A stretch of DNA of 64,000 nt from assembly GCA_964488535.1 (NCBI GenBank), contig CAZAUT010000003.1, positions 2,232 to 66,231 on the forward strand. The letters run 5' to 3'. The stretch's first letter is position 1; each line of letters opens with the position of its first letter. A model generated the notes under the pieces. That model saw only the letters and a program-made list of their open reading frames with translations, had not been told where the DNA came from and ran no database searches. This DNA is from an uncultured Gammaproteobacteria bacterium (GTDB lineage: Bacteria > Patescibacteriota > Microgenomatia > UBA8517). Shown in pieces: positions 6,038 through 61,002 of the stretch. A program made the translations under genes and the position numbers.

Positions 6038-7870
6038 CTATCTCCCCTGAAGCCCGAAAAGCATCTTTATTTCCTGAAGCGTTGTCGCTTCCTTTACGCT
6101 TTTATCTTCTCTAAACTTAACAAGTCTCGGAAAGCGAAGGGCATATCCGCTTGTGTGAATCGGGCTTTTGGTCAAGTCATCTCCCGCAAGCTCAACCACA
6201 AACTTTGGCTCAACCCAAAAATCGGGAGTGTAGTTTTTGTGCGCCTCATACTCTTTCGGCTTTTCTCTTACTTCTAATCGCTTAAGCCTTATTGCTAACT
6301 CTCTAAATTCTTCATCCGTTAAGCCCGTTCCTATTTTGGTTAAAGTTAATATCCTCCCCTCGCCCACCGTAGCCTTGCGCGAAGGCGGGTCAACAACTCC
6401 CACCAAAAATTGTCCTAAACCGAACGACGCCCTTTTACCTTTGCCGACGGTATAGCCCATGACTACGCAGTCAACCGTATCCGAAAGTTTTCCCACCGCT
6501 TCCTCTCCCTGCTTCATTTTTACCCACCGCCAGCCGGTCCGTCCCGAAACATATTTGCTATCATACTTCTTGATAAATATTCCTTCCAAGCCATCTTTGA
6601 TTTTTTTTCTGTATTCGTTATTTATAACTTCAGGATCTTCAGTCACTACCATCGCGTCAACAACCAATAAATTATTTTCCTTGGAAATTATATTCTCTAA
6701 AAGTTTTCTTCTTTTATAATACGGCTCGTTCATCATATTTTTTCCGTCGCAATACAAAACATCAAATACCTGAAAGCTTAAAGGCACTGCTTCGCAGGTA
6801 ACAGAAATCTGATGCACCCTCCTTCTTTTCATCGTCGTCTGGAAATCGGCAAATTTTTTCATTTCGGGATCCATCCCAACGGCTTCGGAATCGAGAATTA
6901 CTTCGCTGCAATTTACATATTTCCCGATTTCCGAAAGTTCCGGAAACATCTCCGTCACATCATTTGAGTTTCTGGTAAATGCTTTTATAAATACATTAGT
7001 TTGTTCGTGATTCGCATGCTTCGTTTCTTCGTTGTTTTGAATTTTTAATTTTTGTTTTGAGTTTTGAGTTTTAAGTTTTGAGCTTTTATAGTGGATTAAA
7101 ACACGAAGTCCGTCAAACTTCGGCTCGATTGCCACTTTACCCATTTTTTCGATCATTTCGGCAGGTGACTTTATCCTTTGTCCGAGCATCGGAAGAACCG
7201 GAACTCCGACAACGGGGGTTACGTTTTTACACGTCTCGTCAATTCCCCTGAGCTTTACACTTTTAGCTAATAGCCCTACATCCGGTAAAATATTGTAGGC
7301 CTCTTCTATCTTCTTACTCTCACTCTTCCCCCCCGTTTCCATCCAGGAAAGCGCATCAATGATTGTCTTATCAGAAAAACCCAAACGCAATTTGCCAACA
7401 GGAATTCTTGCCAAATACCGGGCTGAAAGCGGATCAACACTTTTCAATAATTCCGCCAATTTATCAATTTTTCTTTCAACACTTCCCCCACCCTCGTCCA
7501 CCGCAATCTTATAAAGTACATCATATACTTCGTCAACTGAAGAATTTGTTTTCTGCTTTCTGTTTATTGTTTCTTGTGCAAGCAGCTCCGTCACTATTCC
7601 CAAATCTCCTTTTACTTTATATTCCCGTACCACATCCTCCACTTCACTTCCATACGCCTTCGCCACCGCCTGTATCACCAATTTGTCCGCCATATTAAAG
7701 ACAATTCCTTTGTAGTTTGGAGCAAGTCCGCCAAGGGCTAGATAGCAAATTTTGTCTATTTCATCAGGTGAAGATGTTTTAAAAAGTTCCGCCAGTATTC
7801 TCGTGATCTCAAGACGGGAGGGCGTACTTTCAAGTCGTTGAAGAAAAATCGAAAATTGCGAAAAAGTCAT
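6038..7870 (-). CDS. ATP-dependent DNA ligase, carrying in-frame repeat insertions
   Basis: KxDG adenylation motif (IEPKFDGLRV) plus downstream ligase motifs. A low-complexity insertion KLKTQNSKQKLKIQNNEETK is encoded by gttttgag repeats, and a palindromic-element insertion gives DPPSRKATVGEG. Confidence 0.8.
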   Translation of the reverse strand: MTFSQFSIFLQRLESTPSRLEITRILAELFKTSSPDEIDKICYLALGGLAPNYKGIVFNMADKLVIQAVAKAYGSEVEDVVREYKVKGDLGIVTELLAQETINRKQKTNSSVDEVYDVLYKIAVDEGGGSVERKIDKLAELLKSVDPLSARYLARIPVGKLRLGFSDKTIIDALSWMETGGKSESKKIEEAYNILPDVGLLAKSVKLRGIDETCKNVTPVVGVPVLPMLGQRIKSPAEMIEKMGKVAIEPKFDGLRVLIHYKSSKLKTQNSKQKLKIQNNEETKHANHEQTNVFIKAFTRNSNDVTEMFPELSEIGKYVNCSEVILDSEAVGMDPEMKKFADFQTTMKRRRVHQISVTCEAVPLSFQVFDVLYCDGKNMMNEPYYKRRKLLENIISKENNLLVVDAMVVTEDPEVINNEYRKKIKDGLEGIFIKKYDSKYVSGRTGWRWVKMKQGEEAVGKLSDTVDCVVMGYTVGKGKRASFGLGQFLVGVVDPPSRKATVGEGRILTLTKIGTGLTDEEFRELAIRLKRLEVREKPKEYEAHKNYTPDFWVEPKFVVELAGDDLTKSPIHTSGYALRFPRLVKFREDKSVKEATTLQEIKMLFGLQGR

Positions 7871-8334: not shown

Positions 8335-8718
8335 CTATCTTTTTCTGGAATTGGAAATAATCCTACTAACTATGGCTACAATTTCTTCCCCTTCTTTAAT
8401 CAAAACACTTATTTTATCTTTAAAGATAATATTTAATTCGTACAAAAGTTTTAACCAATAAACGCTTTCTTTACCCTCTTTTCTTACCGTTGTAAAATTA
8501 TGAACAAAATCTTTCGAGGAAGATACTCCATCGGCTTCCTCGGAATTGGCGCCCATTGAAGTTGAAGACCGCAACAATTGTCCAATAACAATTTTATTTT
8601 CATCCGATTTAGGAAGCGACTTTGTTAATTTAATGACACTGATCACAAACATAAAAATTCGCCTATAAATATTGTATTTTCTGTTTTTAATTGGTAATTG
8701 GTACTTATTGGTGTTCAT
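8335..8718 (-). CDS. four-helix-bundle protein (Avd / 23S rRNA intervening-sequence protein family)
   Basis: GQLLRSSTSMGANSEEA and ESVYWLKLL motifs of the family. The true start is probably the internal Met (MFVISV, near 8652). Confidence 0.65.
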   Translation of the reverse strand: MNTNKYQLPIKNRKYNIYRRIFMFVISVIKLTKSLPKSDENKIVIGQLLRSSTSMGANSEEADGVSSSKDFVHNFTTVRKEGKESVYWLKLLYELNIIFKDKISVLIKEGEEIVAIVSRIISNSRKR

Positions 8719-10286: not shown

Positions 10287-11168
10287 TCACTTCATTAAAT
10301 CAAAAAACGTCTCAGGTATTTTTTCAGCAAGGTCATCAGAATTGTAGTTTACCCCAACCTTTTTATACAACTCATCCGCCACAGCTTTCTCTATATAACT
10401 TGCCGCACAAGCTGCTAAAAACGGCTCGTTCTTGGCAAGTAACGCAACTGTCAACCCCGCCAACACATCCCCGCTTCCCCCTTTGGTAAGTCCAGGATTT
10501 CCACCTGTTACTTTTACACACTCATTTGGTGAACAAACCACTGACTTGGAACCTTTGGCAACAATAATACAGTTGTGTTTTTTTGCCATTTCCTGAACCA
10601 CTTCCACTCTTCTACTCTTCCACTCTTCTACTCTAAAGAGTATTTCCAACTCTTTAGCATTCGGAGTTAGTATAGCGTTGTTGGGAATCCATTTATTATC
10701 TATGGTTTGCAAACTCCCTGCATCAATCACCCACTTCTTATGAGGGAACTTCAACAGTAATCTTTTAGTAATTTCTCTCGTTTTATTTCCTTCCCTGTCA
10801 TATTTTTTCACCCCTAATTCATTGTTCATAATTCTTGATTCATGCGTAAAGCGCATCATCCCCGGCCCGATCAAAACCGCGTCCGACTTTTCAATATACG
10901 CATCAACTTCCTCCCATGGAACCAATATAAAAGAGGACAATTCTGCTTTTAGTCGCTCAGCAACCCCGCCTACGCTTGACTCCGGCGAAGCAAAGAAAAC
11001 CATATCCACAACTCTTGAAGCGGCTTTTAACGCCAGTATGGGTGCTCCATGGAAGAGTGATGATCCTCCGATTATTGTTACCTGCCCATTTTCCTCATTA
11101 GACGAACCCCATGCTGGACTATATAAACCTGTTAACAGTTTGGTATCAAATATTTTCATAATAAACAA
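10287..11168 (-). CDS. ADP-dependent NAD(P)H-hydrate dehydratase (YjeF C-terminal domain)
   Basis: Motifs GGSSLFHGAPILA, VLIGPGM and GGSGDVLAG. It contains an in-frame EEWKSRRVEVV insertion encoded by the tcttctactc repeat. Confidence 0.7.
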   Translation of the reverse strand: MFIMKIFDTKLLTGLYSPAWGSSNEENGQVTIIGGSSLFHGAPILALKAASRVVDMVFFASPESSVGGVAERLKAELSSFILVPWEEVDAYIEKSDAVLIGPGMMRFTHESRIMNNELGVKKYDREGNKTREITKRLLLKFPHKKWVIDAGSLQTIDNKWIPNNAILTPNAKELEILFRVEEWKSRRVEVVQEMAKKHNCIIVAKGSKSVVCSPNECVKVTGGNPGLTKGGSGDVLAGLTVALLAKNEPFLAACAASYIEKAVADELYKKVGVNYNSDDLAEKIPETFFDLMK

Positions 11169-11169
11169 A

Positions 11170-11262
11170 AATGGATAAGTCCCGTAGCCACGCTCTTGCG
11201 ACGCGAGGACGTAGACCTCGGGAGCAAGTAAGTGTGGTATCGGGAACCATTATCCTCCCCGC
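11170..11262 (-). ncRNA. conserved ~90-nt noncoding element, copy E1 (putative sRNA, leader or miniature element)
   Basis: It shares gcgaggaYgtaRacctcgRgagMaag and gtaagtgtgKtat blocks with the copies at 29590-29700 and 18800-18930. Each copy lies immediately 5' of a minus-strand gene. Confidence 0.3.
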
Positions 11263-11371
11263 TTGAATCCCATGCAGATTTGTAGAGCTTTTTCAGATCT
11301 TCTTTACCGAAGGTTTTCATATAATGATTATAAATATTATAATCGTTATAATTGGTATAACATAGACATGT

Positions 11372-12151: not shown

Positions 12152-13450
12152 TTATATCTTAATAATCTTCCCCTCCACTCCCTCTATGTAGTGTGGGTCT
12201 GCTGTAGTTATTAAAGTTTGCTGTTTATCTACAATTCCCATCACAACATCCCTATGTTCATGATCGAGTTCTGAAAAAATGTCATCAAGTAATAGAACCG
12301 GCTTATCACCCGTAATACTTTCAATATACGACAGTTCCGCAAGTTTCAGCCAAAGTATTCCCATTCGGGCTTCTCCTCGAGAACCGTATGTAGCAAGATT
12401 TCGAGTAGAATATTTTCCATTTTCCATTTTCTCCCGCAGGACGGGATCCTGCTCCGCAGGAAATTTTCCATTTATTCCCTTTTCTTTTACTCTTCTACTC
12501 TCCTGCTCTTCCACTCTAAAAACGAAATCATCCCTATGCGGTCCTACCAGCGTCGTCCCCGCCGCTACCTCCTCGTTTTCATATTGCTTCAGCCGTCCTT
12601 CACTTATAACACTACTATCATACTGTAAGCTGTAGACCGTCGACTGTAGACTTGTATCTATTTTCCCTTTCCCCCTTTCTTTATTTCTTAAGTTCTTTGT
12701 ATTATTTTTATATATTGGAAATTGGTGCTCATTGGTATTTATTGGATATTGGTATTTATTTATGTAATCGATTAGTTCCCCCCTCTTTTCGGTAATGTAA
12801 TTTCCATGTTTTATAAGGAGTTTATCCCAATACATCAACTGCCCACGGGACAAATTCTCATCCCTTATCCGAAGTAAGAGCCGATTTCTCTGCCGAAGCC
12901 CTTTTTCGTAGATCATCACCGATCTTCGGTATTCACGATCGGTCTGCGACAAAACCGAATCAAGAAATCTTCGCCGAAGCGATGGTGAAGCCGTCACCAA
13001 ATCCATGTCCCATGGACCAAAGAGAACTACCTTCAGATTCCCTGCAAAATCCAAAAGTCTCTTTGCAACTCCATTAACCATTAGTTTTTTTCTCTGCGCC
13101 CTCTGTACTCCTCCGCCATGCAATTCTATTTCACCGTTGGTTAAAACCACCTCTAGGTTTGTATTATGTATTATGTATTTTGTATTATGCGTATTTTCGC
13201 TTAATACATTATTCATGATACTTAATACTGCGGAGACACGAGCAATGCTCGTGTTGTAGCTTATCATCTCCCCCTCCACCCTTGCTTTAAAACTCTTTCC
13301 CGTTGCCAAAAGATAAATTGCTTCCAAAATATTGGTTTTTCCCACAGCATTATCTCCGACAACAATCGTCGTCTTATCCGAAAATTCAAATTTCTTTTTG
13401 CTAAAATTCCTGAAGTTGGTAAGCATCAAATGTTTAATAAACATAATCAA
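12152..13450 (-). CDS. recF: DNA replication and repair protein RecF, carrying in-frame repeat insertions
   Basis: N-terminus LTNFRNF ... VGDNAVGKTNILEAI (Walker A) and a C-terminal LLLDDIFSELD signature. Several in-frame segments are encoded by the ttggtatttattgg, gtattatgtat and tcttctactc repeat families. Confidence 0.8.
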   Translation of the reverse strand: MIMFIKHLMLTNFRNFSKKKFEFSDKTTIVVGDNAVGKTNILEAIYLLATGKSFKARVEGEMISYNTSIARVSAVLSIMNNVLSENTHNTKYIIHNTNLEVVLTNGEIELHGGGVQRAQRKKLMVNGVAKRLLDFAGNLKVVLFGPWDMDLVTASPSLRRRFLDSVLSQTDREYRRSVMIYEKGLRQRNRLLLRIRDENLSRGQLMYWDKLLIKHGNYITEKRGELIDYINKYQYPINTNEHQFPIYKNNTKNLRNKERGKGKIDTSLQSTVYSLQYDSSVISEGRLKQYENEEVAAGTTLVGPHRDDFVFRVEEQESRRVKEKGINGKFPAEQDPVLREKMENGKYSTRNLATYGSRGEARMGILWLKLAELSYIESITGDKPVLLLDDIFSELDHEHRDVVMGIVDKQQTLITTADPHYIEGVEGKIIKI

Positions 13451-17844: not shown

Positions 17845-18780
17845 CTATTTCTGACAATTAGGACACATGTATGTCCCCCTCCCTCCAAGTTTTATTTTTA
17901 CAATCGGTGTTTTACATCGATTGCAGGGTTCCCCCTCCCGCCCGTAAACAAGCGTAAAATCCTGATAGTGTCCTTCACTTCCGTCGGGGGTCACAAATGC
18001 CTGCTCACTGGCACCTCCTTTTTTTATCCCCTCTTTCAGAACTGTCTCTATCGCCTTAAATAACTTAATCACTCGATCACTTGATAACTCAATCGCTTTT
18101 TCCTTCGGATTTATTCCCGCAAGCCACAAAGCATCATTAGCATAAATATTCCCTACCCCCGCCATCTTCGTCTGGTCCATTAAAAGTATTTTTATCGGCT
18201 TTTTGCTCTTTGAGAGAATCTCCGAAAAATCTTTCTCCCTCAAATCCCTCAAAAACTCCTTCCCCAATTTTTTTATGAAGTTTTGAGTTTTGACTTTTGA
18301 ACTTTGAGTTAGTTCCATCCACCCAAACCTCCTGTAATCATTAAAATAAAGAACCGCCCCTTGCCCTTCCGTAGCCTTGTGCGAAGGAGGGTCGTCTAAA
18401 TGAAAAATTACATGTGTGTGTTTCCCCGCCTTCGCCACTCCTTCTTTTAAACGTTCGGGGTTCACATATGCTTCGGCGGGCAAGCCAGGAACTCCCCCAA
18501 CTACCTTGGGCGATAGTTTTTTGTTTTCTGTTTTCTGTTTATTCCTGTAAATAAACTGTCCCGTCATTTTGACGTGGGTCACAATGGAGTACCCGTTTGA
18601 CAAATCCATAACCAACACCTTTCCAAATCTTCTGACACTTGTAATCTTTGCTCCAATTAGTTTTGTCCTATCCCATACCCCGTACTTCGTAATTCTTAAT
18701 TCAAAATTGACTATCGTATGTCCGACAAGAAACCTCTCAAGCTGAACACGTATACTTTCCACCTCTGGCAATTCTGGCAT
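17845..18780 (-). CDS. mutM: formamidopyrimidine-DNA glycosylase (Fpg/MutM), carrying in-frame insertions
   Basis: N-terminus MPELPEVE and a C-terminal zinc finger CNRCKTPIVK...CPNCQ. It has a DPPSHKATEGQG palindromic-element insertion and a gttttgag-repeat insertion. Confidence 0.8.
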   Translation of the reverse strand: MPELPEVESIRVQLERFLVGHTIVNFELRITKYGVWDRTKLIGAKITSVRRFGKVLVMDLSNGYSIVTHVKMTGQFIYRNKQKTENKKLSPKVVGGVPGLPAEAYVNPERLKEGVAKAGKHTHVIFHLDDPPSHKATEGQGAVLYFNDYRRFGWMELTQSSKVKTQNFIKKLGKEFLRDLREKDFSEILSKSKKPIKILLMDQTKMAGVGNIYANDALWLAGINPKEKAIELSSDRVIKLFKAIETVLKEGIKKGGASEQAFVTPDGSEGHYQDFTLVYGREGEPCNRCKTPIVKIKLGGRGTYMCPNCQK

Positions 18781-18799
18781 GATACTATTTTAACAGATT

Positions 18800-18930
18800 T
18801 CTACCCCTCGAAGCCCAGCTTAGTGGGGCGAAGTAGGACAACTCTTTCCCTGTAACCATGCCCCTCGCGAGCGCGAAGCTGTAAGATTCTGGCACGGGGT
18901 AAGTGTGTTATGGAGTCGGGTAATTCGGGC
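18800..18930 (-). ncRNA. conserved noncoding element, copy E3, upstream of fpg
   Basis: It shares gcgaagctgtaag..cacggggtaagtgtgttat blocks with E1 and E2. It also contains a copy of the cgaagcc..ggcgaag palindromic element. Confidence 0.3.
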
Positions 18931-19025
18931 ATATCATCAGTATATAGTATGCAGAATACTGTATACAGGACTTCATTGTTTTATTTGCTGTTGATGTAGT
19001 ATTAATATTATCCTATAATACTTCA

Positions 19026-20518: not shown

Positions 20519-20905
20519 TTACGTATTATGTATTTCTGCACTTTTTATAAGTCCGTTTATCAACTTATGTACGATAATTGTTTGATAATATACTTTATCG
20601 AAATCATCTTTTTCAATATAGCCAATATCCCTGGATATGATTAATTGGTTTTGAACCTCTGTCAAAGAACCCAAAGAAGTGGAGTAGAATTGTACTTTTT
20701 CTTTTCTTGTACGTCTACTAAATCCCTCTGCGATATTGCTGCTAACCGAAATTACAGCACGCAATATTTGGGGGATTAAAATGAAAGCTTCGCTCTTGGG
20801 AAAATTCTTCACAATTTTATAAACCAAAATTACCAACTTATGAGCTTCTTTCCATGCATTTAAATCTGTAAAGTTTGTTATCTTTTTGTTTTGCTGCTCA
20901 TACAT
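20519..20905 (-). CDS. four-helix-bundle protein (Avd / 23S rRNA IVS family)
   Basis: LNAWKEAHKLVILVYK .. FPKSE .. NIAEGFSRRTRKEK. Confidence 0.75.
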   Translation of the reverse strand: MYEQQNKKITNFTDLNAWKEAHKLVILVYKIVKNFPKSEAFILIPQILRAVISVSSNIAEGFSRRTRKEKVQFYSTSLGSLTEVQNQLIISRDIGYIEKDDFDKVYYQTIIVHKLINGLIKSAEIHNT

Positions 20906-20979: not shown

Positions 20980-22002
20980 TCAAAACAACATACCTTGCTC
21001 ACTTACAGAGTTTATATCTTTCAACTTAACCTTCTCTTGACCAATCTCTGGTTTTGAGTTTGATAGTCTCCGCAGGAGACTTTTGAATCCATACTCCATA
21101 AAAAGCCCTACGGCTTTCTCGCTTCCCAAATCCCACTCCCCCATTTTTTTAATATCAATTTCTGTCGGAACGTTGGTGTCAATTGTCGCCAATTCGTACG
21201 ACAGGTCGGCTCCTTCCCTGTCTTTCTCTAATTTATTTCTTACATTTGGATTTATTTCCGACAGGTGTTTATAAACATTCTCCTTCGTTTTATATTTTGT
21301 CAATAAGTCCCTCGCCGTTTTCGGACCAATCCCTGCCACTCCGGGGTAATTGTCCGACGAATCTCCAACCAACGCTTTATAATCAACCATTTGTTTGGGC
21401 TCAAAATCAAATTCTTGCTTTACCTCTTCAACTCCGTATAATTTCCCTTCTTTTAATCCTTTTACCGGAACATAGACCTTCACTTTGTCATTTATGAGCT
21501 GAAAAATATCCCGATCGCCGGTGACGATGATAACTTTGTCGATCAGAGTAGAAGAGCGGGAGAGCGGGAGAGTAGAAGTTCTTATTGATTTCTGATTTTT
21601 CTCATGTTTCTTACTTACACTCTTCCACTCTTTTACTCTTATACTCTGCTTGGCAAGCGTCCCAAGCACATCATCCGCCTCAAACCCCGCTTTCTCATAA
21701 ACCGGAATTCCAAATGCTTCCAAAACATCGTGCATTTTGGTAATTTGTTGGGAAAGAAAGTCATCCATTTCAGGACGCTGTGATTGATAGTGAATATACT
21801 TTTCTTTTCTGAAAGTCTTTTCCGGGCGGTCAAAACAAACCGCAATATGGGTGGGTTTAATGTCGTTTATAAGTCCCAGAAGCATTGAAACAAATCCATA
21901 AACAGCATTTATAGGTTCTCCTTTTTTAGTCGTTAAGGGAGGCAAAGCATGATACGCCCGATGCATGATCGCATTTCCGTCAATAAGAATCAGTTTTGAC
22001 AT
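20980..22002 (-). CDS. stand-alone 5'-3' exonuclease (PolI N-terminal / FEN-like), carrying an in-frame repeat insertion
   Basis: N-terminus LILIDGNAIMHRAYHALPPL and an H3TH region. A 40-aa low-complexity insertion is encoded by a gagtagaag / ctcttccactc inverted repeat. Confidence 0.8.
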   Translation of the reverse strand: MSKLILIDGNAIMHRAYHALPPLTTKKGEPINAVYGFVSMLLGLINDIKPTHIAVCFDRPEKTFRKEKYIHYQSQRPEMDDFLSQQITKMHDVLEAFGIPVYEKAGFEADDVLGTLAKQSIRVKEWKSVSKKHEKNQKSIRTSTLPLSRSSTLIDKVIIVTGDRDIFQLINDKVKVYVPVKGLKEGKLYGVEEVKQEFDFEPKQMVDYKALVGDSSDNYPGVAGIGPKTARDLLTKYKTKENVYKHLSEINPNVRNKLEKDREGADLSYELATIDTNVPTEIDIKKMGEWDLGSEKAVGLFMEYGFKSLLRRLSNSKPEIGQEKVKLKDINSVSEQGMLF

Positions 22003-25692: not shown

Positions 25693-26073
25693 TTACGAAT
25701 TATGTATTTTTTCAACTCCTTTTATTAAACCATTAATTAGTTTATGAACAACAATCGTCTGATTATCTAAAACCTCAAAATTGTGCATATCAAGATAATT
25801 TACTCCACGGGCAATAATTATTTGATTTTGAAGCTCGGTTAACGACCCCTGAGCCATAGTATAAAACTGAATTTTTTCCTTTCTCGTCCGTCTACTAAAA
25901 CCCTCTGCAACATTACTTGAAACTGAAACGACAGCCCTTCTCATTTGAGAAACAAGTGCATATATCTCCTTTTGAGGAAAACGTTCTGTAACTTTGTAAA
26001 TTAATATTACTAATCTATAAGCTTCTTTCCAGGCATTCAAATCAGAAAACCTACGAATTTTCTCCTCATACAT
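25693..26073 (-). CDS. four-helix-bundle protein (Avd / 23S rRNA IVS family)
   Basis: LNAWKEAYRLVILIYK..FPQKE..NVAEGFSRRTRKEK. Confidence 0.75.
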   Translation of the reverse strand: MYEEKIRRFSDLNAWKEAYRLVILIYKVTERFPQKEIYALVSQMRRAVVSVSSNVAEGFSRRTRKEKIQFYTMAQGSLTELQNQIIIARGVNYLDMHNFEVLDNQTIVVHKLINGLIKGVEKIHNS

Positions 26074-29181: not shown

Positions 29182-29455
29182 AAACAGTTCGAATAAGATA
29201 TCCTCATTATTCGGTACTCCGACTGTCTGCCGACATACCGTTGTGACGTGATGACGCTTCACTTGCGTGGTAGACTATCGCCTACCCGGCTCCGGGATCC
29301 CAACCAATCCCTTCACAGCCTTTTTTAAATTATGTTGGTATAGTACCAAAATTTCGAAATAATTGCAAACATACTGAAGTTGAAAAGAATTTTGACATGT
29401 CGATCTGCGATTGCCATAGCGATTTGAAAAATCGGTATGTCGCAAAAATTTGCTG

Positions 29456-29527
29456 TGCCAAGGGAGAGGATCGAACTCTCGACATCGCGCTTATGAAACG
29501 CGCGCTCTACCACTGAGCTACCTTGGC
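29456..29527 (-). tRNA. tRNA-Met (CAT anticodon; elongator Met or Ile2/lysidine type)
   Basis: The minus strand reads GCCAAGGTAGCTCAGTGGTAGAGCGCGCGTTTCATAAGCGCGATGTCGAGAGTTCGATCCTCTCCCTTGGCA. The cloverleaf is complete, with anticodon loop TTCATAA and no GGG/CCC initiator signature in the anticodon stem. Confidence 0.8.
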
Positions 29528-29540
29528 AATATTTTTTGCG

Positions 29541-29577
29541 CCATGAAACGATTGCTCTACCACTGAGCTACGTTGGC
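29541..29577 (-). pseudogene. truncated 5'-half copy of tRNA-Met, ending in the anticodon loop after CAT
   Basis: The minus strand reads GCCAACGTAGCTCAGTGGTAGAGCAATCGTTTCAT then GGCGC. It lies 12 nt upstream of the intact tRNA-Met. Confidence 0.5.
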
Positions 29578-29589
29578 AAAATTTGTCAT

Positions 29590-29700
29590 GAAACGACTAC
29601 CCTGCCATTACCTGCCCCGTAAAAGCGATACTTCGATGCGAGGATGTAAACCTCGAGAGAAGCGAGCTCTGTACGGGGAGCTACCCCGACATTCCCTATT
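29590..29700 (-). ncRNA. conserved noncoding element, copy E2, upstream of tRNA-Met
   Basis: cgatgcgaggatgtaaacctcgagagaagcgagctctgtacgggg shares blocks with E1 and E3. It contains the hairpin CGAGG-7nt-CCTCG. Confidence 0.3.
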
Positions 29701-29906
29701 TTACTAAAGCGTTGTATTAACTTCAATCTTGAAGTATAATTTACCCTGTTCTTTACCATAATTCCTAATTCATAATTCGTAATTCAGGAAAAATGTGCGG
29801 GGTAGTGTCCCGAAAAAATTTCGCTTTGCTCAATTCAACGGGACGAGCAGATGAAACTTCGCATACATTGGTAATTTTAATCGTATTTTAACAACTTAAT
29901 CATATG

Positions 29907-30227
29907 TGCGGGGTAGTGTACGGCTGCACGGAAGGCTCAAAATGGGCTTCCCGCTTAGCGGGATAAATTTGGCTATATCGGTGAAACCTAAGCTTTATAG
30001 AGTATGGCAACGCCGAGGAAAGACTACGTTCAAATTTTATGAAAGTAGAATCCGTAGAGACTATACGCCAAAGCACGTTCATATAAACTGAATGTACAAG
30101 ACATAGTCCGACACTCCCAAATACCTTTTGGTATTTGACAGTAAACTGTATAGTTCATTGCAAGAAATTGGAGATTACAGAATAAGCATAATCTTCCAGA
30201 TCAGGTTCAACTCCTGACCCCGCAACA
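29907..30227 (+). ncRNA. ssrA: tmRNA (SsrA)
   Basis: The 5' acceptor strand TGCGGGG pairs with the 3' CCCCGCA. The 3' T-arm CAGGTTCAACTCCTG is near-identical to the E. coli tmRNA T-arm GGGTTCAACTCCCGC. A candidate tag ORF at 30007-30042 (GCA ACG CCG AGG AAA GAC TAC GTT CAA ATT TTA TGA, giving ATPRKDYVQIL) aligns in position and codons with E. coli ANDENYALAA. Confidence 0.6.
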
Positions 30228-30762: not shown

Positions 30763-31626
30763 ATGACGCAGGTTGTTCTTAAAGACCTTTTGCCCAAATT
30801 CATACAACACCTCAAGGATAATAAAAGATCCCCATCGACAGTATTGGCGTACAAAGCAGACCTCGATCAGCTGGTTTCATTTCTCACAGAGAAAGGTAAA
30901 GTATTGACCGAAGATGTAGAAGCATCCGACATTGAAGGGTTCCGTGATACGCTGCTAGCCAACAAGTATACGCCGAAATCCGTTTCGAGAAAACTAAATG
31001 CCGTAAAAACGTTTTTCAGGTTTTTGACCGACAACAAAATATCTCCCAAAGATCCGTCGTCTTCAGTTTCTCACCCCAAAATCGAGTCAACTATGCCGAA
31101 ATTTTTATCTGCCATTGAATACAGAGCCTTGCGGGATGTGGTCCGAAACGACGCCAGGATAGCTGCAATAATTGAATTGATCTTAGAGGCCGGATTGAGA
31201 ATTTCTGAAGTAGCCGGACTTAAAAGGGAAAACTGCAAAAACCACATCCTTAAAATTGAGGCTTATGCAACTCAGGAAGCTCGGGAAATTCCTCTCAATG
31301 CATCGGCAAAGGCTGCCCTCGACAGGTATCTTAACGAGAGGCCGGATACCAAGTCTCCCTATGTATTCGTAAGTAAAAACGGAAAACCTCTTGCCATAAG
31401 AAATATCAGAGCAGCTATCGACAGATATTTCCAAAAAGCCGAAATTCCCGGATACACCGTAAACGATCTCCGCACTACTTTTGTCGTACAAAACTTAAAA
31501 GCCGGCGTGGATCTTATTCTTCTTTCCCGTGTTTCGGGCCCCAAAAGACTCTCAACGACGGAAAGATATCTTCAGCTTGCCCAAATCACCCAATCGGGCA
31601 AGAAACAGGAGTTGGTGGAGTTGTAA
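30763..31626 (+). CDS. tyrosine site-specific recombinase (XerC/XerD/integrase family), with divergent active-site residues
   Basis: Core-binding N-domain, ARG-I in GLRISEVAGL, DLRTTF in place of HxLRH, and C-terminal LSTTERY carrying the catalytic Tyr. Confidence 0.7.
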   Translation: MTQVVLKDLLPKFIQHLKDNKRSPSTVLAYKADLDQLVSFLTEKGKVLTEDVEASDIEGFRDTLLANKYTPKSVSRKLNAVKTFFRFLTDNKISPKDPSSSVSHPKIESTMPKFLSAIEYRALRDVVRNDARIAAIIELILEAGLRISEVAGLKRENCKNHILKIEAYATQEAREIPLNASAKAALDRYLNERPDTKSPYVFVSKNGKPLAIRNIRAAIDRYFQKAEIPGYTVNDLRTTFVVQNLKAGVDLILLSRVSGPKRLSTTERYLQLAQITQSGKKQELVEL

Positions 31627-32462: not shown

Positions 32463-32534
32463 GTGGGCTGAGATGGGTTCGAACCATCGACATCTACTTT
32501 ATAAGAGTAGCGCTCTACCACTGAGCTATCAGCC
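32463..32534 (-). tRNA. tRNA-Ile (TAT anticodon)
   Basis: The minus strand reads GGGCTGATAGCTCAGTGGTAGAGCGCTACTCTTATAAAGTAGATGTCGATGGTTCGAACCCATCTCAGCCCA. The cloverleaf is complete, with anticodon loop CTTATAA. Confidence 0.7.
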
Positions 32535-32568
32535 CTTAAATTTATTGACATGTCAAACTCCGTTTGCC

Positions 32569-32602
32569 ATAAGAGTAGCGCTCTACCGCTGAGCTACACG
32601 CC
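32569..32602 (-). pseudogene. 5' half of a split tRNA (GGGCGTGTAGCTCAGCGGTAGAGCGCTACTCTTAT)
   Basis: Acceptor 5' strand, D-arm, anticodon stem, and a loop ending at CTTAT. Its 3' partner lies 125 nt downstream on the minus strand, beyond the intact tRNA-Ile. Confidence 0.45.
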
Positions 32603-32614
32603 CTCAACTTCTGT

Positions 32615-32650
32615 CATAAGAAAGGCACTCTAACCACTGAGTTACCGAGC
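32615..32650 (-). pseudogene. additional truncated tRNA 5' half (GGCTCGGTAACTCAGTGGTTAGAGTGCCTTTCTTAT)
   Basis: A third 5' half that also ends at CTTAT. No matching 3' half was found. Confidence 0.4.
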
Positions 32651-32971
32651 CGTGAGGTTATTATATCAAGAGATGTGTAAAAACTTAACACGAGGTTGAA
32701 AATTTGTTGATAGTTACTTGGTTACTTTGACAAACGCGGTACGTGATACGAAATGCGAGATACGAAATACGTAAAACGAAAATGGTTAGTAGAAATCAGA
32801 AAATTGTAATGGATAATAGAGATTGGAAAATGGTACTCAAATTTCTATTTTCAATTTTCCATTACTAATTTCTACTTTCTCTCAACCAATTTCTGTTCCT
32901 GTTTATTGTTTTTCCTCCCAATATCCTAATATCCTAGTATCTTAATATCTTCATCTCTCAACAATTTGTAT

Positions 32972-33945: not shown

Positions 33946-36270
33946 CTATAGTTTTGATCTTCTTGCAATCTCTGCTTCAACAAGCCGAATGTCGCGCCCA
34001 TAATTAAGTCTGCTCATTTCGCGTATGATTTCGGCCACCTTCGGATTTTCCATAGCCTTTATTTTCTCAACATCGCGGAAAAGATCCATTGAAAATGGCG
34101 GAACGGGTTCATTATTTACCGTAGTTTTGACATAGACGTGATATTTTTCAATGTTAAGAAGGTCGTCTTCGGCAAAAACGGGTGTAAATTCATGCTGAAG
34201 GTAACTCGCGTCCGTAGTTCCGATTCTAAAAGAAATTATCGTGCCGACGTTCCCGAAAACGGCGTTTTTAACCTCTTCCTCCACCTGTCCGATAAACTGA
34301 TTTGCAACACAAAGTGCCAGAGCATATTTTCTGGCTTCGGAGAGAATGACAGCAAAATCAGGGGTTGCAAAATTTTGGAACTCATCAACATAAAGATAAA
34401 ACGGACGTCTTTGCTCTTTAGGTACGTCTGTCCTGCTCATTGCTGCCATAAGAATTCTTGGAACCAAAATAAGCCCCAAAAAGCTGGAGTTCTCCTCCCC
34501 GATCGTACCTTTTGAGAGATTGATAAAGAGAATCTTTCCGTCATCCATAACCCGGCGGAGATCGAAAGATGACTGGGATTGGCCGATTATATTCCTCACC
34601 ATCTTGTTTGTAACAAATCTTCCGAATTTTGAAGTAATATAGTCCAAAACTTCAGATTTATGAAAATCGGACGTCTGTGCAATCTGGTCGGTCCAGTAAC
34701 GCCGGACAATCGGATCCTTCACTTTAGGCAGCAGTTCCTGCACATAGCGCGAGTCTGTCAAAACCCTCATTACCTCGATAAAAGTGTTGCCATCCTCGCT
34801 CATAACCGTCAGCATTGCATTTCTTACTGCATGTTCAAAACGAGGGCCCACAATACCGGTTTTATAGGGATCGAAAAGCTTATACATCATGTTTATGACG
34901 GAAGTGGATGCAAAGTGCTTCTGATCTTCCGTTTTGGCTTCAAGAAGGTTTAACCCCATCGGTCTTTCCGTGTCGGAAGGGTTGAAATAAATAACATCCT
35001 CGGCCCGTTCCGGCGGGATGAGATTTAAAAGTTCCTCTACCGCGTCTCCATGCGGATCGATAAAACACACTCCCTCGCCGTTTCGTATGTCCTGAATTAC
35101 AAGATCTTTTAATAGCTCCGACTTTCCGACACCGGTTTTTCCGACAATATACATATGCCTCATTCTGTCTTCATCGGTAATGTAAACCGGCCGTTTTGTT
35201 CCCTGGTATGAACTTAATCCCAAATACGTTCCCGTCTGAGGAATTCTGGCCGGGGCAGGTGCGGTTTTTGAATAAACCCAATGTATATGGGGTGTTGTAA
35301 TCGTTTTATTGGGAAAATGATATATCGACGCAAGTTCCTCGGAATTAAGTATTGTTTTTTTATTTCCCATGATATGAAACATTGGGTGGTAACGGTAAAT
35401 AAAGTCTTCAATAAAAGCGCCTTTTTGTCTTACCTTTCTCCCTTTAAGATAATTAAGATCTCCGTTAAATTGTGCAAATGCACTGCTGATATTCGACAGG
35501 TGGGATTTTGCCGTCTCTTTGTTGTTGGCAACAACAACAATCCTGATTGATGTGTCAAAACCAGATTTGGATATTTTGTTTTCCACCGCCTCAAGCGTTT
35601 TCGCGGGAACGGAAAACTTTGCTTTCTCCGGATCTGCCTCCTGTTTCTTCGTTGAAGAAATAAAGCCGGATCCGGCTTTACTCCAGTTATTTTCTGCGGG
35701 AGAAATGAGTATTTGAATTGCAGCTGACTCACCATCGCCCATCTTTGCCAATGCTGCAGTTATAACCGACATAGGATCGGTGGGCAATTCTTTATATGTT
35801 TTCATCGGAAAGTAGTTGTCCCTTGCCAGTTGAAATGCCTTATAGGCAACCTTTCCTTCCTCCGTAAAGATATTGTATTCCTGTACTTCGGTCACGTCTG
35901 CATCGGGATACGCTCCGTGAATCTGTTTTTCTATCATGTCCTGAAATTTTTTCGGTGTCCAAACGTAAAAACGGATATCTTCCTTTTTGGCAACAATCTC
36001 GAAAGAAATCGTTGGCTGTGTTTTATATTTTTGTTTCCAACCGCCTTCTTTTATTGAATAAAGCGCGGAAAACATCTGCTCCATCGCATCAATTTTTATC
36101 TCATTATTTTTATGAACTGCCACCTGCAGTAAAACCGAGTCTATCGATTCTTCTTCTCTGTTTCGATGTTTGATATTCGTAAAAATAAAAAAAACCGCAA
36201 CGGCAGCAAAGAAAATAAAAAGAGACAATATTGCTAAAAATATTAGGATTATATCTATTTCGCTATACAT
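33946..36270 (-). CDS. type IV coupling protein-like P-loop ATPase (VirD4/TraD/TraG family), membrane anchored
   Basis: N-terminal TM helix, Walker A IVGKTGVGKS, Walker B YLYVDEFQNF, then ARKYALALCVANQF..GNVGTIISFRIG, which parallels the TrwB RKFGLRVVAGLQ..FRSLVVLG region. Confidence 0.55.
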   Translation of the reverse strand: MYSEIDIILIFLAILSLFIFFAAVAVFFIFTNIKHRNREEESIDSVLLQVAVHKNNEIKIDAMEQMFSALYSIKEGGWKQKYKTQPTISFEIVAKKEDIRFYVWTPKKFQDMIEKQIHGAYPDADVTEVQEYNIFTEEGKVAYKAFQLARDNYFPMKTYKELPTDPMSVITAALAKMGDGESAAIQILISPAENNWSKAGSGFISSTKKQEADPEKAKFSVPAKTLEAVENKISKSGFDTSIRIVVVANNKETAKSHLSNISSAFAQFNGDLNYLKGRKVRQKGAFIEDFIYRYHPMFHIMGNKKTILNSEELASIYHFPNKTITTPHIHWVYSKTAPAPARIPQTGTYLGLSSYQGTKRPVYITDEDRMRHMYIVGKTGVGKSELLKDLVIQDIRNGEGVCFIDPHGDAVEELLNLIPPERAEDVIYFNPSDTERPMGLNLLEAKTEDQKHFASTSVINMMYKLFDPYKTGIVGPRFEHAVRNAMLTVMSEDGNTFIEVMRVLTDSRYVQELLPKVKDPIVRRYWTDQIAQTSDFHKSEVLDYITSKFGRFVTNKMVRNIIGQSQSSFDLRRVMDDGKILFINLSKGTIGEENSSFLGLILVPRILMAAMSRTDVPKEQRRPFYLYVDEFQNFATPDFAVILSEARKYALALCVANQFIGQVEEEVKNAVFGNVGTIISFRIGTTDASYLQHEFTPVFAEDDLLNIEKYHVYVKTTVNNEPVPPFSMDLFRDVEKIKAMENPKVAEIIREMSRLNYGRDIRLVEAEIARRSKL

Positions 36271-39281: not shown

Positions 39282-39653
39282 TTACGAGTGGGAAAGCTTC
39301 TCGGTTGAACGAATAAGTCCGCCAAGTATAACCCCCGATTTTTCGGATTGTTTCATTATCTCTTCAAACCCTTCATTGGATAAGTATCCTAAATCCTTGG
39401 CAATTAACGACTGTGTTTGAACCTCTGAAAGTGAACCTCTGGCATCGAAATAGAAATTCAACCTGTCTTTGTAGTGGTATCTGGAGAATCCTTCTGCTAT
39501 ACAAGATTCATTGGAAACAACGGCACGTCTGATTTGTGAAGTCAATCCAAAAGTTTCCGACTTTGGAAAACTCCCGGAATACTTGTAAATCATAAGTGTT
39601 AACTTATGCGCCTCTTTCCAAGCATCCAAATCCTGAAATGTTTTTATTTTCAT
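39282..39653 (-). CDS. four-helix-bundle protein (Avd / 23S rRNA IVS family)
   Basis: LDAWKEAHKLTLMIYK..FPKSE..CIAEGFSRYHYKDR. Confidence 0.75.
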   Translation of the reverse strand: MKIKTFQDLDAWKEAHKLTLMIYKYSGSFPKSETFGLTSQIRRAVVSNESCIAEGFSRYHYKDRLNFYFDARGSLSEVQTQSLIAKDLGYLSNEGFEEIMKQSEKSGVILGGLIRSTEKLSHS

Positions 39654-41927: not shown

Positions 41928-41936
41928 GTTGATAAT

Positions 41937-46714: not shown

Positions 46715-47155
46715 CTACTCTTTGATCGCGCGTGCAAAATCCTCCAAATCCTCAAACTGCAGATAAACGCTTGCAAACCGAAGCCACGCCACCTTGTCGA
46801 TTCTTTTTAATTTTTTCAGTATTGCAATACCTATAGCTTTACTGGAAACCTCCTCTTTTTCTTTTCTCAACATCTCCCTCTCCACCCTATCCACGATATC
46901 GTTAACCAAATCCATTGAAACGGGTCTTTTCTCAACGGCTCGTAATATTCCCTTTTTGATCTTCTCTCTGTCATAAGGTTCTCGCCTGCCGTCTTTTTTT
47001 ACAACCCACATTGCTGATCCGCCAATCTTCTCGTAAGTTGTAAATCTTTTTTTACATTTTAAACATTCCCTTCTTCTTCTCAAAGATTTTCCTTCATCAA
47101 CCATGCGCGACTCTAAAACCTGTGTATCGTTTGCTGTACAAAATGGACAACGCAT
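46715..47155 (-). CDS. nrdR: transcriptional repressor NrdR
   Basis: N-terminal zinc ribbon MRCPFCTANDTQVLESR...CLKCKKRFTTYE followed by an ATP-cone. Confidence 0.85.
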   Translation of the reverse strand: MRCPFCTANDTQVLESRMVDEGKSLRRRRECLKCKKRFTTYEKIGGSAMWVVKKDGRREPYDREKIKKGILRAVEKRPVSMDLVNDIVDRVEREMLRKEKEEVSSKAIGIAILKKLKRIDKVAWLRFASVYLQFEDLEDFARAIKE

Positions 47156-60639: not shown

Positions 60640-61002
60640 TTAAGTTGATTTTTTTATTGTCAAGATATTACTGTTGATTCCCTTAGCCAAACCACCATAT
60701 TCATGGTCCATATTTTGAAAATTCACTTTATCAATATATCCTAAACCGAGTGCTATTGACAAGTGGCTTTGGGTTTCAAAACATTCTCCACGGGGAACAT
60801 ATAACGATCTGACTTTATCCTTATAGTAATATCTTCCATAAGCTTCCGCAATTCCGGCAGTAACTCCGTTTGCCGAACTTCTAGTTTGACTTATTAAGTT
60901 GTATTTTTCTTCTTTTGGATAGGTTGAAGTAATTTTGTAAATTTCTACCTCCAACTCGTATGCCTCCCTCCAAATATTTAAGTCCCTAAAACTACCAACC
61001 AT
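60640..61002 (-). CDS. four-helix-bundle protein (Avd / 23S rRNA IVS family)
   Basis: LNIWREAYELEVEIYK..YPKEE..GIAEAYGRYYYKDK. Confidence 0.75.
   Translation of the reverse strand: MVGSFRDLNIWREAYELEVEIYKITSTYPKEEKYNLISQTRSSANGVTAGIAEAYGRYYYKDKVRSLYVPRGECFETQSHLSIALGLGYIDKVNFQNMDHEYGGLAKGINSNILTIKKST

What the first reader, a model, noticed from the sequence alone, without database searches (positions are those of the whole stretch)
11170..11262. Family of conserved ~90-nt noncoding elements placed immediately 5' of minus-strand genes (yjeF-C, fpg, tRNA-Met)
Three copies (11170-11262, 18800-18930 and 29590-29700) share ordered blocks: GCGAGGAYGTARACCTCGRGAG forming the hairpin CGAGG-N7-CCTCG, then AAGCGAGCTNTGTAAG, then ACGGGG..GTAAGTGTGKTAT. 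Each sits just upstream of a gene start in the same relative orientation. They could be a shared promoter/leader module, a small RNA family, or a miniature mobile element that carries a promoter.
Basis: seen in the sequence. Interest (0 to 1): 0.5.

Follow-up and report, generated by a model that had tools for sequence, protein, structure and literature searches.

The report
Hairpin element at replaced gene ends
A roughly 66-nt, strongly base-paired element conserved in more than a hundred Microgenomates (CPR) genomes sits at the outer edge of tiny insertions that replace the first or last few dozen bases of conserved genes and tRNAs, leaving the displaced original end beside it; it matches no described RNA or repeat family that I searched and looks like a new small element that spreads horizontally.

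Summary
The three copies are real members of one family. A covariance model scores them at 85.9, 69.1 and 17.3 bits; copy 2 keeps the arms but has a different apical domain. The 22-mer core occurs in about 110 loci from about 90 Microgenomates (CPR) genomes and in no viral, plasmid or phage record. It matches no Rfam family. Structure is strongly supported: 18 pairs, 97% paired, 17 pairs with compensatory changes. The structure is favoured on the strand that is usually antisense to the neighbouring gene.

The window shows this for yjeF-C (25 codons), fpg (MPELP) and tRNA. The two gene-end copies differ almost only at synonymous sites, so they diverged as functional genes in separate lineages. 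An element-free allele that is 99.5% identical up to the junction shows the hairpin sits exactly at a recombination breakpoint.

Best reading (about 0.5): the hairpin is the cis-acting end of a small, non-autonomous cassette that replaces gene ends and spreads laterally through conserved gene ends. The enzyme, and whether the active form is DNA or RNA, are unknown.

The parts
11180..11245 (+). Element copy 1 (type 1): hairpin core with three helices plus an apical stem
   Evidence: CM hit 11178-11249, 85.9 bits. The 22-mer lies at 11203-11224.
11246..11320 (-). Displaced yjeF-C 5' fragment A' (ATG at 11320, 25 codons, MKTFGKEDLKKLYKSAWDSSGEDNG). It abuts the 3' foot of copy 1.
   Evidence: tblastn matches yjeF residues 1-25 to 11320-11246. 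The peptide resembles orthologue N-termini more than the functional start does.
11160..11179 (-). Spacer between copy 1 and the functional yjeF-C start. The upstream ORF that runs through the element stops at a TGA overlapping the ATG.
   Evidence: Sequence reading.
10287..11159 (-). Functional yjeF-C (NAD(P)HX dehydratase) gene, with replacement 5' end A2 at 11085-11159
   Evidence: Pfam PF01256; homologues.
18848..18915 (+). Element copy 2 (type 2): arms conserved, apical domain GCGCGAAGCTGTAAGATTC instead of the 22-mer
   Evidence: CM hit 18846-18920, 17.3 bits. Type-2 relatives occur in L037, L066, L038, L007 and L062.
18916..18932 (-). Displaced fpg start fragment A' (ATGCCCGAATTACCCGA, MPELP), abutting copy 2
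   Evidence: Sequence. The same duplication is seen in L043, L085, L100, L110 and L070.
18804..18828 (+). Mini-hairpin F between copy 2 and the fpg ATG. It marks an older layer of the same kind of event.
   Evidence: Shared with L124 and L131, where F alone separates a duplicated fpg start from the real one.
17845..18780 (-). Functional fpg gene
   Evidence: Pfam PF01149, PF06831 and PF06827.
29615..29678 (+). Element copy 3 (type 1)
   Evidence: CM hit 29613-29683, 69.1 bits. The 22-mer lies at 29638-29659.
29679..29690 (-). Displaced 5' end of another tRNA (GTCGGGGTAGCTC, positions 1-13), abutting copy 3. A promoter-like site at 29726-29698 lies just upstream of it.
   Evidence: Sequence; promoter scan.
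29528..29614 (-). Spacer of copy 3. It holds older tRNA-Met 5'-half fragments (29543-29584 and 29586-29598), each ending right after anticodon CAT.
   Evidence: the repeat finder D13; sequence.
29455..29527 (-). Intact tRNA-Met(CAT)
   Evidence: ARAGORN and Rfam.
29808..29843 (-). Degenerate arms-only remnant of the element, antisense to the + strand intron-containing tRNA-Met. The duplicated tRNA start is at 29794-29808 versus 29905-29919.
   Evidence: CM 10.5 bits, E 2.2, weak; sequence.

Best explanation
The element is the conserved cis-acting end of a family of very small, non-autonomous DNA cassettes in Microgenomates.

A cassette is ordered as follows: a replacement copy of a gene's terminal 6-80 nt, then a spacer of 3-60 nt, then the hairpin. 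It sits inside the end of a conserved gene, tRNA or promoter. The gene stays intact because it reads into the cassette-borne end. The original end is pushed outward and lies directly against the hairpin's 3' foot.

Shown:
- the structure and its covariation;
- the strand asymmetry of folding;
- the architecture and its sharp junction;
- presence/absence polymorphism;
- purifying-selection-type divergence between the two gene-end copies;
- an identity breakpoint exactly at the hairpin.

Inferred:
- Cassettes spread between genomes by recombination. The conserved gene end serves as one homology arm and the gene body as the other. This resembles homing of an intron, except that a spare gene end is carried instead of the insert being spliced out. 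It would explain why targets are genes with highly conserved extreme termini.
- The hairpin, folded as single-stranded DNA on the motif strand, is the recognition and cutting site of a trans-acting strand transferase. Candidates are an HUH-type or Xer-like tyrosine recombinase. This enzyme would make the rare de novo insertions and the precise joint at the hairpin foot.
For: Family and structure:
- 116 pattern hits, about 110 of them in CPR genomes, and 117 CM hits.
- 18 pairs, 97.3% paired, 17 pairs with double changes, 349 compensatory cells, 0 of 500 shuffles as good, slid controls no higher than 0.066 against 0.488.
- No Rfam family matches. No hit in viral contigs, plasmids or phages.

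Single-strand signature:
- GU/UG pairs 71 versus AC/CA 18.
- RNAalifold energy -23.9 versus -15.9, and 98 of 112 copies are more stable on the motif strand.

Architecture:
- 25 of 101 loci have significant flank duplications.
- In 23 of the 26 best-scoring loci, one copy starts within 0-4 nt of the 3' foot while the other lies 3-60 nt from the 5' side.
- The same geometry holds at gene 5' ends, gene 3' ends and tRNA 3' ends.

Recurrent targets, each at the same codon in different classes of Microgenomates: Fpg, YchF, UvrA, TrxB, MreB, GT4 and YjeF-C.

Foreign origin of one copy:
- Differences by codon position are 27/13/105, with 96 synonymous and 25 non-synonymous codons.
- The window's A' matches orthologue starts (23/25 aa to P0034; 81.6% nt to L199), whereas the functional start A2 gives no HSP.

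Empty site:
- L197 is 99.45% identical to L008 over 730 nt up to the junction.
- L008 then has a 147-nt insert (hairpin, spacer, replacement gene end).
- After that, identity is 67-85% for about 250 nt, then 98% again. The four left-side mismatches are all third-codon positions within 17 nt of the junction, as a conversion tract would give.
- 25 related fpg loci lack the element.

Tandem arrays and nested variants occur.
Against: - No transposase, HUH or integrase gene is linked to the element in about 110 loci. In the window the only recombinase is a Xer-like gene 1 kb from copy 3.
- Copies in one genome are not each other's nearest relatives (4 of 53), so there is no sign of recent intragenomic transposition.
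- About 70% of loci show no detectable duplication.
- Orientation is biased, not absolute: 25 versus 10 in co-directional contexts. One subclass lies sense-strand directly upstream of tRNAs or genes, behind a terminator.
- Many neighbours are stress or repair genes (lexA, hrcA, lon, dinB, uvrA, fpg, trxB), which a regulon would also explain.
- The near-invariant loops and extensive covariation show long-term selection on the structure. That fits a host function as well as it fits a parasite's recognition site.
- Most loci are MAG contigs, and a 66-nt repeat could seed chimeric joins. The right side of the L008 breakpoint might therefore come from a co-occurring strain. The left junction and the element-free allele are unaffected by this.
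Confidence: 0.5

Rival explanations
1. A passive GC-rich hairpin with a host function (for example a barrier to transcription, replication or branch migration, or a protein-binding site). It is not itself mobile. It ends up at recombination breakpoints because a structured 66-nt heterology stops heteroduplex extension. The gene-end duplications would be a general by-product of frequent allelic replacement in these naturally competent genomes.
For: - Gene-end fragments occur without the element: tRNA-Met and tRNA-Ile 5' halves in the window, and the different mini-hairpin F at fpg in L124 and L131.
- No linked enzyme is found, and there are no intragenomic bursts.
- Structure and loops are strongly conserved.
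- L033 and L045 have their identity break at the start of A', not at the hairpin.
Against: - The displaced fragment abuts the 3' foot within 0-4 nt in 23 of 26 cases. That argues for a defined joint rather than a diffuse barrier.
- The same element sits at more than 30 unrelated sites, and it is absent from orthologous sites.
- Tandem A-E-A-E-A arrays occur.
Confidence: 0.2
2. A structured RNA. It could be a cis-acting leader, or a small RNA transcribed from the motif strand. In the tRNA-linked subclass such an RNA would be released by RNase P, and it might regulate stress and repair genes.
For: - Covariation typical of functional RNAs.
- The G-U excess on one strand.
- The subclass where the element lies 2-6 nt upstream of tRNA-His and tRNA-Tyr on the same strand, after a terminator.
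- Enrichment of SOS, heat-shock and oxidative-stress genes, with the element placed just upstream of -35 boxes that carry LexA or CIRCE operators.
Against: - In most loci the favoured strand is antisense to the adjacent gene, with no promoter-like site upstream of it.
- Position relative to promoter, RBS and start codon varies from upstream of -35 to inside the coding region.
- Targets include tRNAs and gene 3' ends.
- The flanking fragment is conserved at the amino-acid level, not the nucleotide level, so it is not selected as an antisense guide.
- There is no terminator or RBS-sequestering platform.
Confidence: 0.15
3. A scar of larger integrase-bearing integrative elements. The hairpin would be an arm-type site of attP that remains, together with attL/attR-like repeats, after the element's interior was deleted (CIME-like).
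For: - The topology matches integration into a gene end with restoration of the gene: intact gene end, insert, then displaced end.
- There is a perfect 22-nt repeat at a tRNA-Gly 3' end in L072.
- A tyrosine recombinase lies near copy 3.
Against: - No full-length element with an integrase was seen at any of about 110 loci.
- Inserts are always 90-200 nt.
- Targets are too diverse for one site-specific integrase.
- No second fragment of fpg or yjeF occurs elsewhere in the window.
Confidence: 0.1

Closest known systems
Integrative elements that target gene or tRNA ends and restore them, and their integrase-less derivatives (CIMEs)
   Same: - Insertion lies inside the end of a conserved gene or tRNA.
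- The element supplies a replacement end.
- The displaced native end remains as a direct, partly diverged repeat on the far side.
   Different: - The insert is only about 90-200 nt and has no integrase.
- Targets are dozens of different genes, at both 5' and 3' ends.
- The repeat length varies from 6 to 80 nt.
- The conserved module is a single long hairpin.
Homing introns and inteins, and intronless homing of free-standing endonuclease genes
   Same: - Occupies the most conserved motifs of conserved genes and tRNAs.
- Filled and empty alleles coexist.
- Short co-conversion-like tracts flank the insertion.
- The same site is occupied in distant lineages.
   Different: - Nothing is spliced out. 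Function is kept by carrying a spare gene end.
- There is no endonuclease gene and no ribozyme core (Rfam negative).
Hairpin-type repeats: REP/REPIN, Correia, RUP and Rickettsia palindromic elements, and MITEs in general
   Same: - Short, GC-rich, imperfectly palindromic and non-coding.
- Dispersed, often next to genes.
- Non-autonomous.
   Different: - Low copy number.
- Near-invariant loops across classes of bacteria.
- No fixed-length target duplication.
- No RAYT or parent IS found.
- Associated with xenologous gene-end duplicates.
Folded single-strand recombination sites (integron attC, CTX-phage attP used by XerCD, IS200/IS605 ends)
   Same: - Function resides in a structure on one strand only.
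- Stems covary while a few bases stay fixed.
- The joint lies at the foot of the hairpin.
   Different: - No attC R/L boxes and no cassette arrays.
- Not located at dif.
- A single hairpin rather than left and right ends.
- Duplications are present.
'Small tRNA introns with defined secondary structures' reported for CPR tRNA genes (Castelle et al. 2018, as summarised in bioRxiv 10.1101/2025.07.03.662931)
   Same: A tRNA 5' fragment, the insert and a full tRNA could together be read by a tRNA finder as a tRNA with a small structured intron after the anticodon.
   Different: This is untested because the original paper was not available. In the loci examined here, the tRNA downstream is complete and needs no splicing.

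Membership tests
Any Rfam 15 family | Covariance-model score at or near the family's gathering threshold | tested here: not met
   No hit at the three window sites at gathering or at E<=10. No hit at the element in 23 further loci.
MITE | Terminal inverted repeats derived from a parent IS, plus a fixed-length target-site duplication | tested here: not met
   The whole element is one hairpin. Flank duplications vary from 6 to 80 nt and are often xenologous. No transposase was found in 57 window ORFs or in the neighbour clusters.
REP/REPIN | 20-40-nt palindromes in hundreds of copies, mostly at gene 3' ends, with a RAYT gene | tested here: not met
   Only 1-4 exact cores per genome and 3-4 copies in 64 kb. 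Copies lie mostly at gene starts. No Y1 transposase in the window.
Integron attC | R''/L''-L'/R' boxes (RYYYAAC...GTTRRRY), arrays of promoterless cassettes next to intI/attI | tested here: not met
   The element's ends are CCCCGTA...TACGGGG. Copies are dispersed next to housekeeping genes. Whether the Xer-like recombinase has an IntI patch was not tested.
IS200/IS605-type ends (PATE) | Distinct left and right subterminal hairpins, no target duplication, insertion 3' of a fixed tetra- or pentanucleotide | tested here: not met
   There is a single hairpin. Duplications are present. No common tetranucleotide appears at junctions.
Gene-end-restoring integrative element | Insertion in a gene end with an element-borne replacement end and a displaced native end as a direct repeat | tested here: met
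   window parts at 11246-11320, 18916-18932 and 29679-29690.
Gene-end-restoring integrative element | A site-specific integrase encoded within the inserted DNA | tested here: not met
   Inserts are about 90-200 nt and no integrase family is enriched among neighbours.
Homing intron/intein | Filled and empty alleles at a conserved site, with co-conversion of flanks | tested here: met
   L197 versus L008. Twenty-five empty fpg loci. This rests on one well-resolved pair only.
Homing intron/intein | Removal by RNA or protein splicing, and a homing endonuclease gene | tested here: not met
   No ribozyme hit. The gene has its own complete start after the insert. No ORF lies in the insert.
Cis-regulatory leader/riboswitch | Sense-strand 5' UTR position, an expression platform, and a coherent gene set | tested here: inconclusive
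   The favoured strand is antisense in most loci and no platform was found. However, a sense-strand subclass exists, and stress/repair genes are over-represented by eye.

The most novel reading that the evidence does not exclude
A natural 'home-and-rescue' selfish element. A 66-nt hairpin would invade the most conserved ends of essential genes and tRNAs across Microgenomates species by carrying a synonymously diverged spare copy of the gene end. The host gene is therefore never broken. The diverged spare copy, together with the hairpin, might also protect the filled allele from whatever nuclease or recombinase opens empty alleles. This would be a mobility strategy distinct from transposition, site-specific integration and intron or intein homing.
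Probability: 0.25. Interest if true: 0.9.

Novelty: new variant of a known kind. Interest (0 to 1): 0.75.

Why it matters
CPR bacteria have tiny genomes, yet here a conserved structured element marks places where the ends of housekeeping genes, tRNAs and regulated promoters have been swapped for foreign copies.

If the reading is right, three things follow:
- It reveals a previously undescribed way for selfish or exchangeable DNA to occupy essential genes without splicing.
- It gives a sequence tag for mapping horizontal allele replacement in uncultivated bacteria.
- It warns annotators that short ORFs, 'tRNA fragments' and 'small tRNA introns' next to these hairpins are displaced gene ends.

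The hairpin's invariant loops also imply a conserved, still unknown protein partner specific to Microgenomates.

Tried and rejected
1. Cyanobacterial small dispersed repeats or STRR. This was my first guess from the many short tandem repeats. It was dropped once the genome scan placed the element in Microgenomates; the literature search for it returned only an unrelated paper on REPINs.
2. Known RNA families and self-cleaving ribozymes. Rfam was negative at both permissive and gathering thresholds. By eye, no hammerhead, twister or pistol core is present.
3. Local target-site duplication followed by neutral decay. Rejected for the diverged pairs by the codon-position test (27/13/105). A few young, near-identical pairs (L072, L023, L007) remain compatible with it.
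4. Antisense guide or sRNA made of the hairpin plus the flanking fragment. Rejected because the fragment is conserved at the protein level, not the nucleotide level.
5. A large island splitting a resident gene. No second fpg or yjeF fragment exists in the window.
6. Promoter inside the element. None was found.
7. Linkage to GIY-YIG nuclease or 23S-IVP genes. These occur in 9 and 5 of about 110 loci at variable distances, which I judge to be about background.
8. Phage or plasmid origin. No hits.
9. Clustering of copies by genome or by target. Uninformative, with too few variable sites.
10. Resolving recombination boundaries in the ychF set. The genomes are too diverged.
11. Literature search by sequence and by keywords. 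No paper on this element was found; the hits on tRNA group I introns were used only for an in-passing item.

Full report
**1. Checking the observation**

The three sites exist. Inside the window the similarity is thin.
- The 22-mer hairpin block is shared only by copies 1 and 3 (20/22 identical).
- GTAAGTGTGKTAT is shared only by copies 1 and 2.
- The third block is essentially copy 3 alone.
- blastn-short finds no cross-match.

The case is settled by outside data. The degenerate 22-mer GCGAGGANGTANACCTCGNGAG occurs in 116 stretches of the species-representative genome collection. All but six of these lie in Microgenomates-type CPR genomes: Levy-, Woese-, Gottesman-, Roizman-, Curtiss- and Amesbacteria, plus many bins with generic labels. 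The six exceptions are in GC-rich coding sequence of unrelated organisms. Each genome carries 1-4 exact cores.

A covariance model built from 96 of these copies returns window 11178-11249 (85.9 bits), 29613-29683 (69.1 bits) and 18846-18920 (17.3 bits, E 0.024). It also returns a weak arms-only remnant at 29803-29845 on the minus strand. Copy 2 keeps the outer arms but carries a different apical domain. This 'type 2' also occurs in L037, L066, L038, L007 and L062.

The window itself comes from a Woesebacteria-like genome. Its YjeF-C protein is found on one NCBI contig, and the nearest homologues (up to 70% identity) are named Woesebacteria.

**2. The element**

The consensus is CCCCGTAnnnnCGCYCYTBCGAS-GCGAGGAYGTARACCTCGSGAG-VAAGTAAGYnnnnTAYGGGG, about 66 nt.

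On 112 copies aligned to the model:
- 18 pairs in 4 helices are 97.3% paired.
- 17 pairs show changes on both sides, covering 349 cells.
- None of 500 shuffles reaches this level.
- Sliding the partners lowers the covariation score from 0.488 to no more than 0.066.

The apical stem is closed by a covarying C-G/U-A pair around a GUA triloop. A tandem G-A/A-G motif and the loop GUAAG are nearly invariant.

The structure is strand-specific:
- G-U pairs number 71, against 18 A-C pairs.
- The motif strand folds better in 98 of 112 copies.
- RNAalifold energy is -23.9 on the motif strand versus -15.9 kcal/mol on the complement.

No Rfam 15 family matches, even at E<=10. There are no matches in IMG/VR, PLSDB or the phage collection. 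No paper contains the core sequence.

**3. Surroundings: displaced gene ends**

All descriptions below are in the orientation of the motif.
- The left neighbour is a gene whose start faces the element in 62 loci, against 20 where an end faces it. The right side is unbiased.
- In co-directional gene contexts the split is 25 to 10.
- Divergent contexts outnumber convergent ones 17 to 3.

In 25 of 101 loci the two flanks contain a significant direct duplication. In 23 of the 26 best-scoring cases, one copy begins within 0-4 nt of the hairpin's 3' foot, and the other lies 3-60 nt from the 5' side and continues into the intact gene. The duplicated segment is the end of the neighbouring gene.

In the window:
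- yjeF-C. The intact start MKIFDTKLLTGLYSPAWGSSNEENG is at 11159. The displaced copy MKTFGKEDLKKLYKSAWDSSGEDNG occupies 11320-11246.
- fpg. The intact start MPELPEVE is at 18780. The displaced fragment ATGCCCGAATTACCCGA is at 18932-18916.
- tRNA. The intact tRNA-Met is at 29527-29455. The first 13 nt of a different tRNA abut copy 3, preceded by a promoter-like site.

The same sites recur in other genomes:
- Fpg after MPELPEV
- YchF after GLPNVG
- UvrA after GAREH
- TrxB after GSG
- MreB after IDLG
- GT4 after ALVHDY
- YjeF-C

The geometry also holds for gene 3' ends (TrxB C-terminus, L092, L048) and for tRNA 3' ends (L009, L072).

In a further class the element, followed by CTGCGG and a hairpin of variable sequence, lies directly upstream of the -35 box of lexA, hrcA, lon and dinB promoters. 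These promoters carry SOS or CIRCE operators.

A minority class lies sense-strand, after a terminator and a second hairpin, 2-6 nt upstream of tRNA-His, tRNA-Tyr or a gene start.

**4. The two gene-end copies are xenologues**

Over 16 loci, differences between the displaced and the functional copy fall 27/13/105 on codon positions 1/2/3. Synonymous codon differences number 96, non-synonymous 25. In L031, thirteen codons are all identical at the amino-acid level despite about 13 nucleotide changes, including TCA versus AGT for serine. By my own arithmetic, chi-square against a uniform distribution is about 100. Neutral decay of a local duplicate cannot produce this pattern. Each copy evolved as part of a working gene in a different lineage.

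In the window, the displaced yjeF-C fragment looks like the local orthologous start. It matches P0034 at 23/25 residues and L199 at 81.6% nucleotide identity. The functional start is the outlier.

**5. Empty site and breakpoint**

The metagenome contig L197 encodes P0012 and keeps the DUF5654-yjeF synteny of the window. It has no element and only 44 nt between the two genes.
- L197 is 99.45% identical to L008 (Woesebacteria GW2011_GWB1_39_12) over 730 nt, up to the last base of the displaced fragment.
- The only four mismatches are third-codon positions within the last 17 nt.
- L008 then carries a 147-nt insert: hairpin, spacer and replacement codons 1-25.
- Beyond the insert, the genes are 67-85% identical for about 250 nt, 98% for about 150 nt, then 52-80%. 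Downstream they are not collinear.

The hairpin therefore sits exactly at a recombination breakpoint, with short conversion-like tracts on both sides.

Further support:
- Twenty-five Microgenomates-type fpg loci from metagenomes have no element, even with CM filters off.
- Many of those loci keep the GT4-fpg operon junction that the filled alleles also retain at the displaced start.
- L033 and L045 are 90-100% identical upstream and 42-84% identical from the displaced fragment onward.

Caveat: these are MAG contigs, and a repeat could seed chimeric assembly. That could affect the right-hand side of a breakpoint. It cannot affect the junction itself or the existence of the empty allele.

**6. 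Mechanism**

The data fit a small cassette ordered as replacement gene end, spacer, hairpin. The cassette is transferred between genomes by recombination. The conserved gene end acts as a short arm and the gene body as the long arm. This explains:
- why targets share highly conserved extreme termini;
- why displaced fragments often look freshly functional;
- why the same codon is occupied in different classes of bacteria.

The precise joint at the hairpin foot, the strand-specific fold, the tandem A-E-A-E-A arrays, the nested variants and a few near-identical young duplications (L072 22/22, L023, L007) suggest one further step. A trans-acting enzyme may recognise the folded single strand and make de novo insertions. 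That step is inference.

No transposase, HUH protein or integrase is linked to the element. The window holds only a Xer-like recombinase and a VirD4-like ATPase as conceivable partners. Copies within a genome are not each other's closest relatives.

Gene-end fragments also occur with other junction sequences: mini-hairpin F at fpg in the window, L124 and L131, and bare tRNA 5' halves. End replacement is therefore a wider habit of these genomes, and this hairpin is its most conserved marker.

**7. Rivals**

- Passive structural element that merely stops heteroduplexes (0.2).
- Structured RNA regulator or small RNA (0.15). This is kept alive by the sense-strand tRNA subclass and by the many stress and repair genes among the neighbours.
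- Scar of integrase-bearing islands (0.1).

An antisense-guide role for the flanking fragment, a promoter inside the element, a large island and a phage or plasmid origin were tested and rejected.

**8. Comparison with known systems, and verdict**

In logic the element resembles integrative elements that restore their target gene. In choice of sites and in the filled/empty polymorphism it resembles homing introns. In form it resembles REP-, MITE- or attC-like hairpins. It fails at least one defining feature of each: it has no integrase, no splicing or endonuclease, no fixed target duplication or parent IS, and no attC boxes.

I file it as a new variant of small non-autonomous mobile or recombination elements, with confidence of about 0.5 in that reading. 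The family, its structure and the displaced-gene-end architecture are solid. The enzyme, the active nucleic acid and the driving force remain open.

Noticed in passing
window 29907-30224 (+): A tRNA-Met(CAT) gene is interrupted by a 249-nt group I intron between anticodon-loop positions 33 and 34. Exon 1 is 29907-29937, the intron 29938-30186 and exon 2 30187-30224. ARAGORN missed it on genomic DNA, but the spliced sequence is called tRNA-Met. The position matches the known 33/34 site of tRNA-fMet introns (PMC13011429).
   Followed up: yes
window 29543-29598 and 32569-32660 (-): tRNA 5'-half fragments that end right after the anticodon lie upstream of tRNA-Met and tRNA-Ile(TAT). No hairpin element separates them. 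They look like a stack of displaced 5' ends from successive replacements.
   Followed up: partly
window 32463-32535 (-): tRNA-Ile with anticodon TAT (UAU), which I recall being unusual for bacteria.
   Followed up: no
window 8338-8718, 20522-20905, 25696-26073, 39285-39653, 60643-61002: Five 23S-rRNA-intervening-sequence (four-helix-bundle, bAvd-like) protein genes occur in 64 kb. Each is embedded in arrays of short 7-10-nt tandem repeats. They look like another class of inserted cassette.
   Followed up: partly
window 10592-10636, 1966-2026, 12475-12527, 21605-21657, 55717-55769: Tandem octamer arrays (ACTCTTCY) recur in intergenic DNA. They also occur in frame inside coding sequence, for example in yjeF-C, where they encode EEWKSRRVEVV.
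   Followed up: no
window 6356-6391 and 18358-18393: A 36-nt GC-rich palindromic repeat (CCCCTCGCCC...GCGAAGGCGGGTC) is inserted in frame in the ATP-dependent DNA ligase gene and in fpg. The Fpg N-terminal domain is about 38 residues longer than the Pfam profile.
   Followed up: partly
window 18804-18828; L124 ~60-85; L131 ~945-970: Mini-hairpin F (CCCCAC..GCT..CG.GGGGTA) sits between a duplicated fpg start and the real start. It is a second, smaller junction element with the same architecture.
   Followed up: partly
window 30763-31623 (+), 33949-36270 (-): A Xer-like tyrosine recombinase and a VirD4/TrwB-like coupling ATPase lie between the tRNA genes. They are the only candidate DNA-transfer or recombination enzymes in the window.
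   Followed up: no
window 39771-46662 (-), 46718-47155 (-): Three tandem paralogues of the ribonucleotide reductase large subunit lie next to nrdR.
   Followed up: no
L002 5995-6099, L035 2261-2355 (=L071), L111, L080 900-1010: Element variants with an extra 33-nt hairpin (or a longer insert) nested between CGAC and GCGAGG. This gives a Y-shaped fold and shows that the apical region tolerates insertions.
   Followed up: no
L199 560-735: The element-free yjeF locus of a window relative carries a different hairpin (GTCGTCATTCTGG...CCAGAATGACGA) in the DUF5654-yjeF intergenic region.
   Followed up: no
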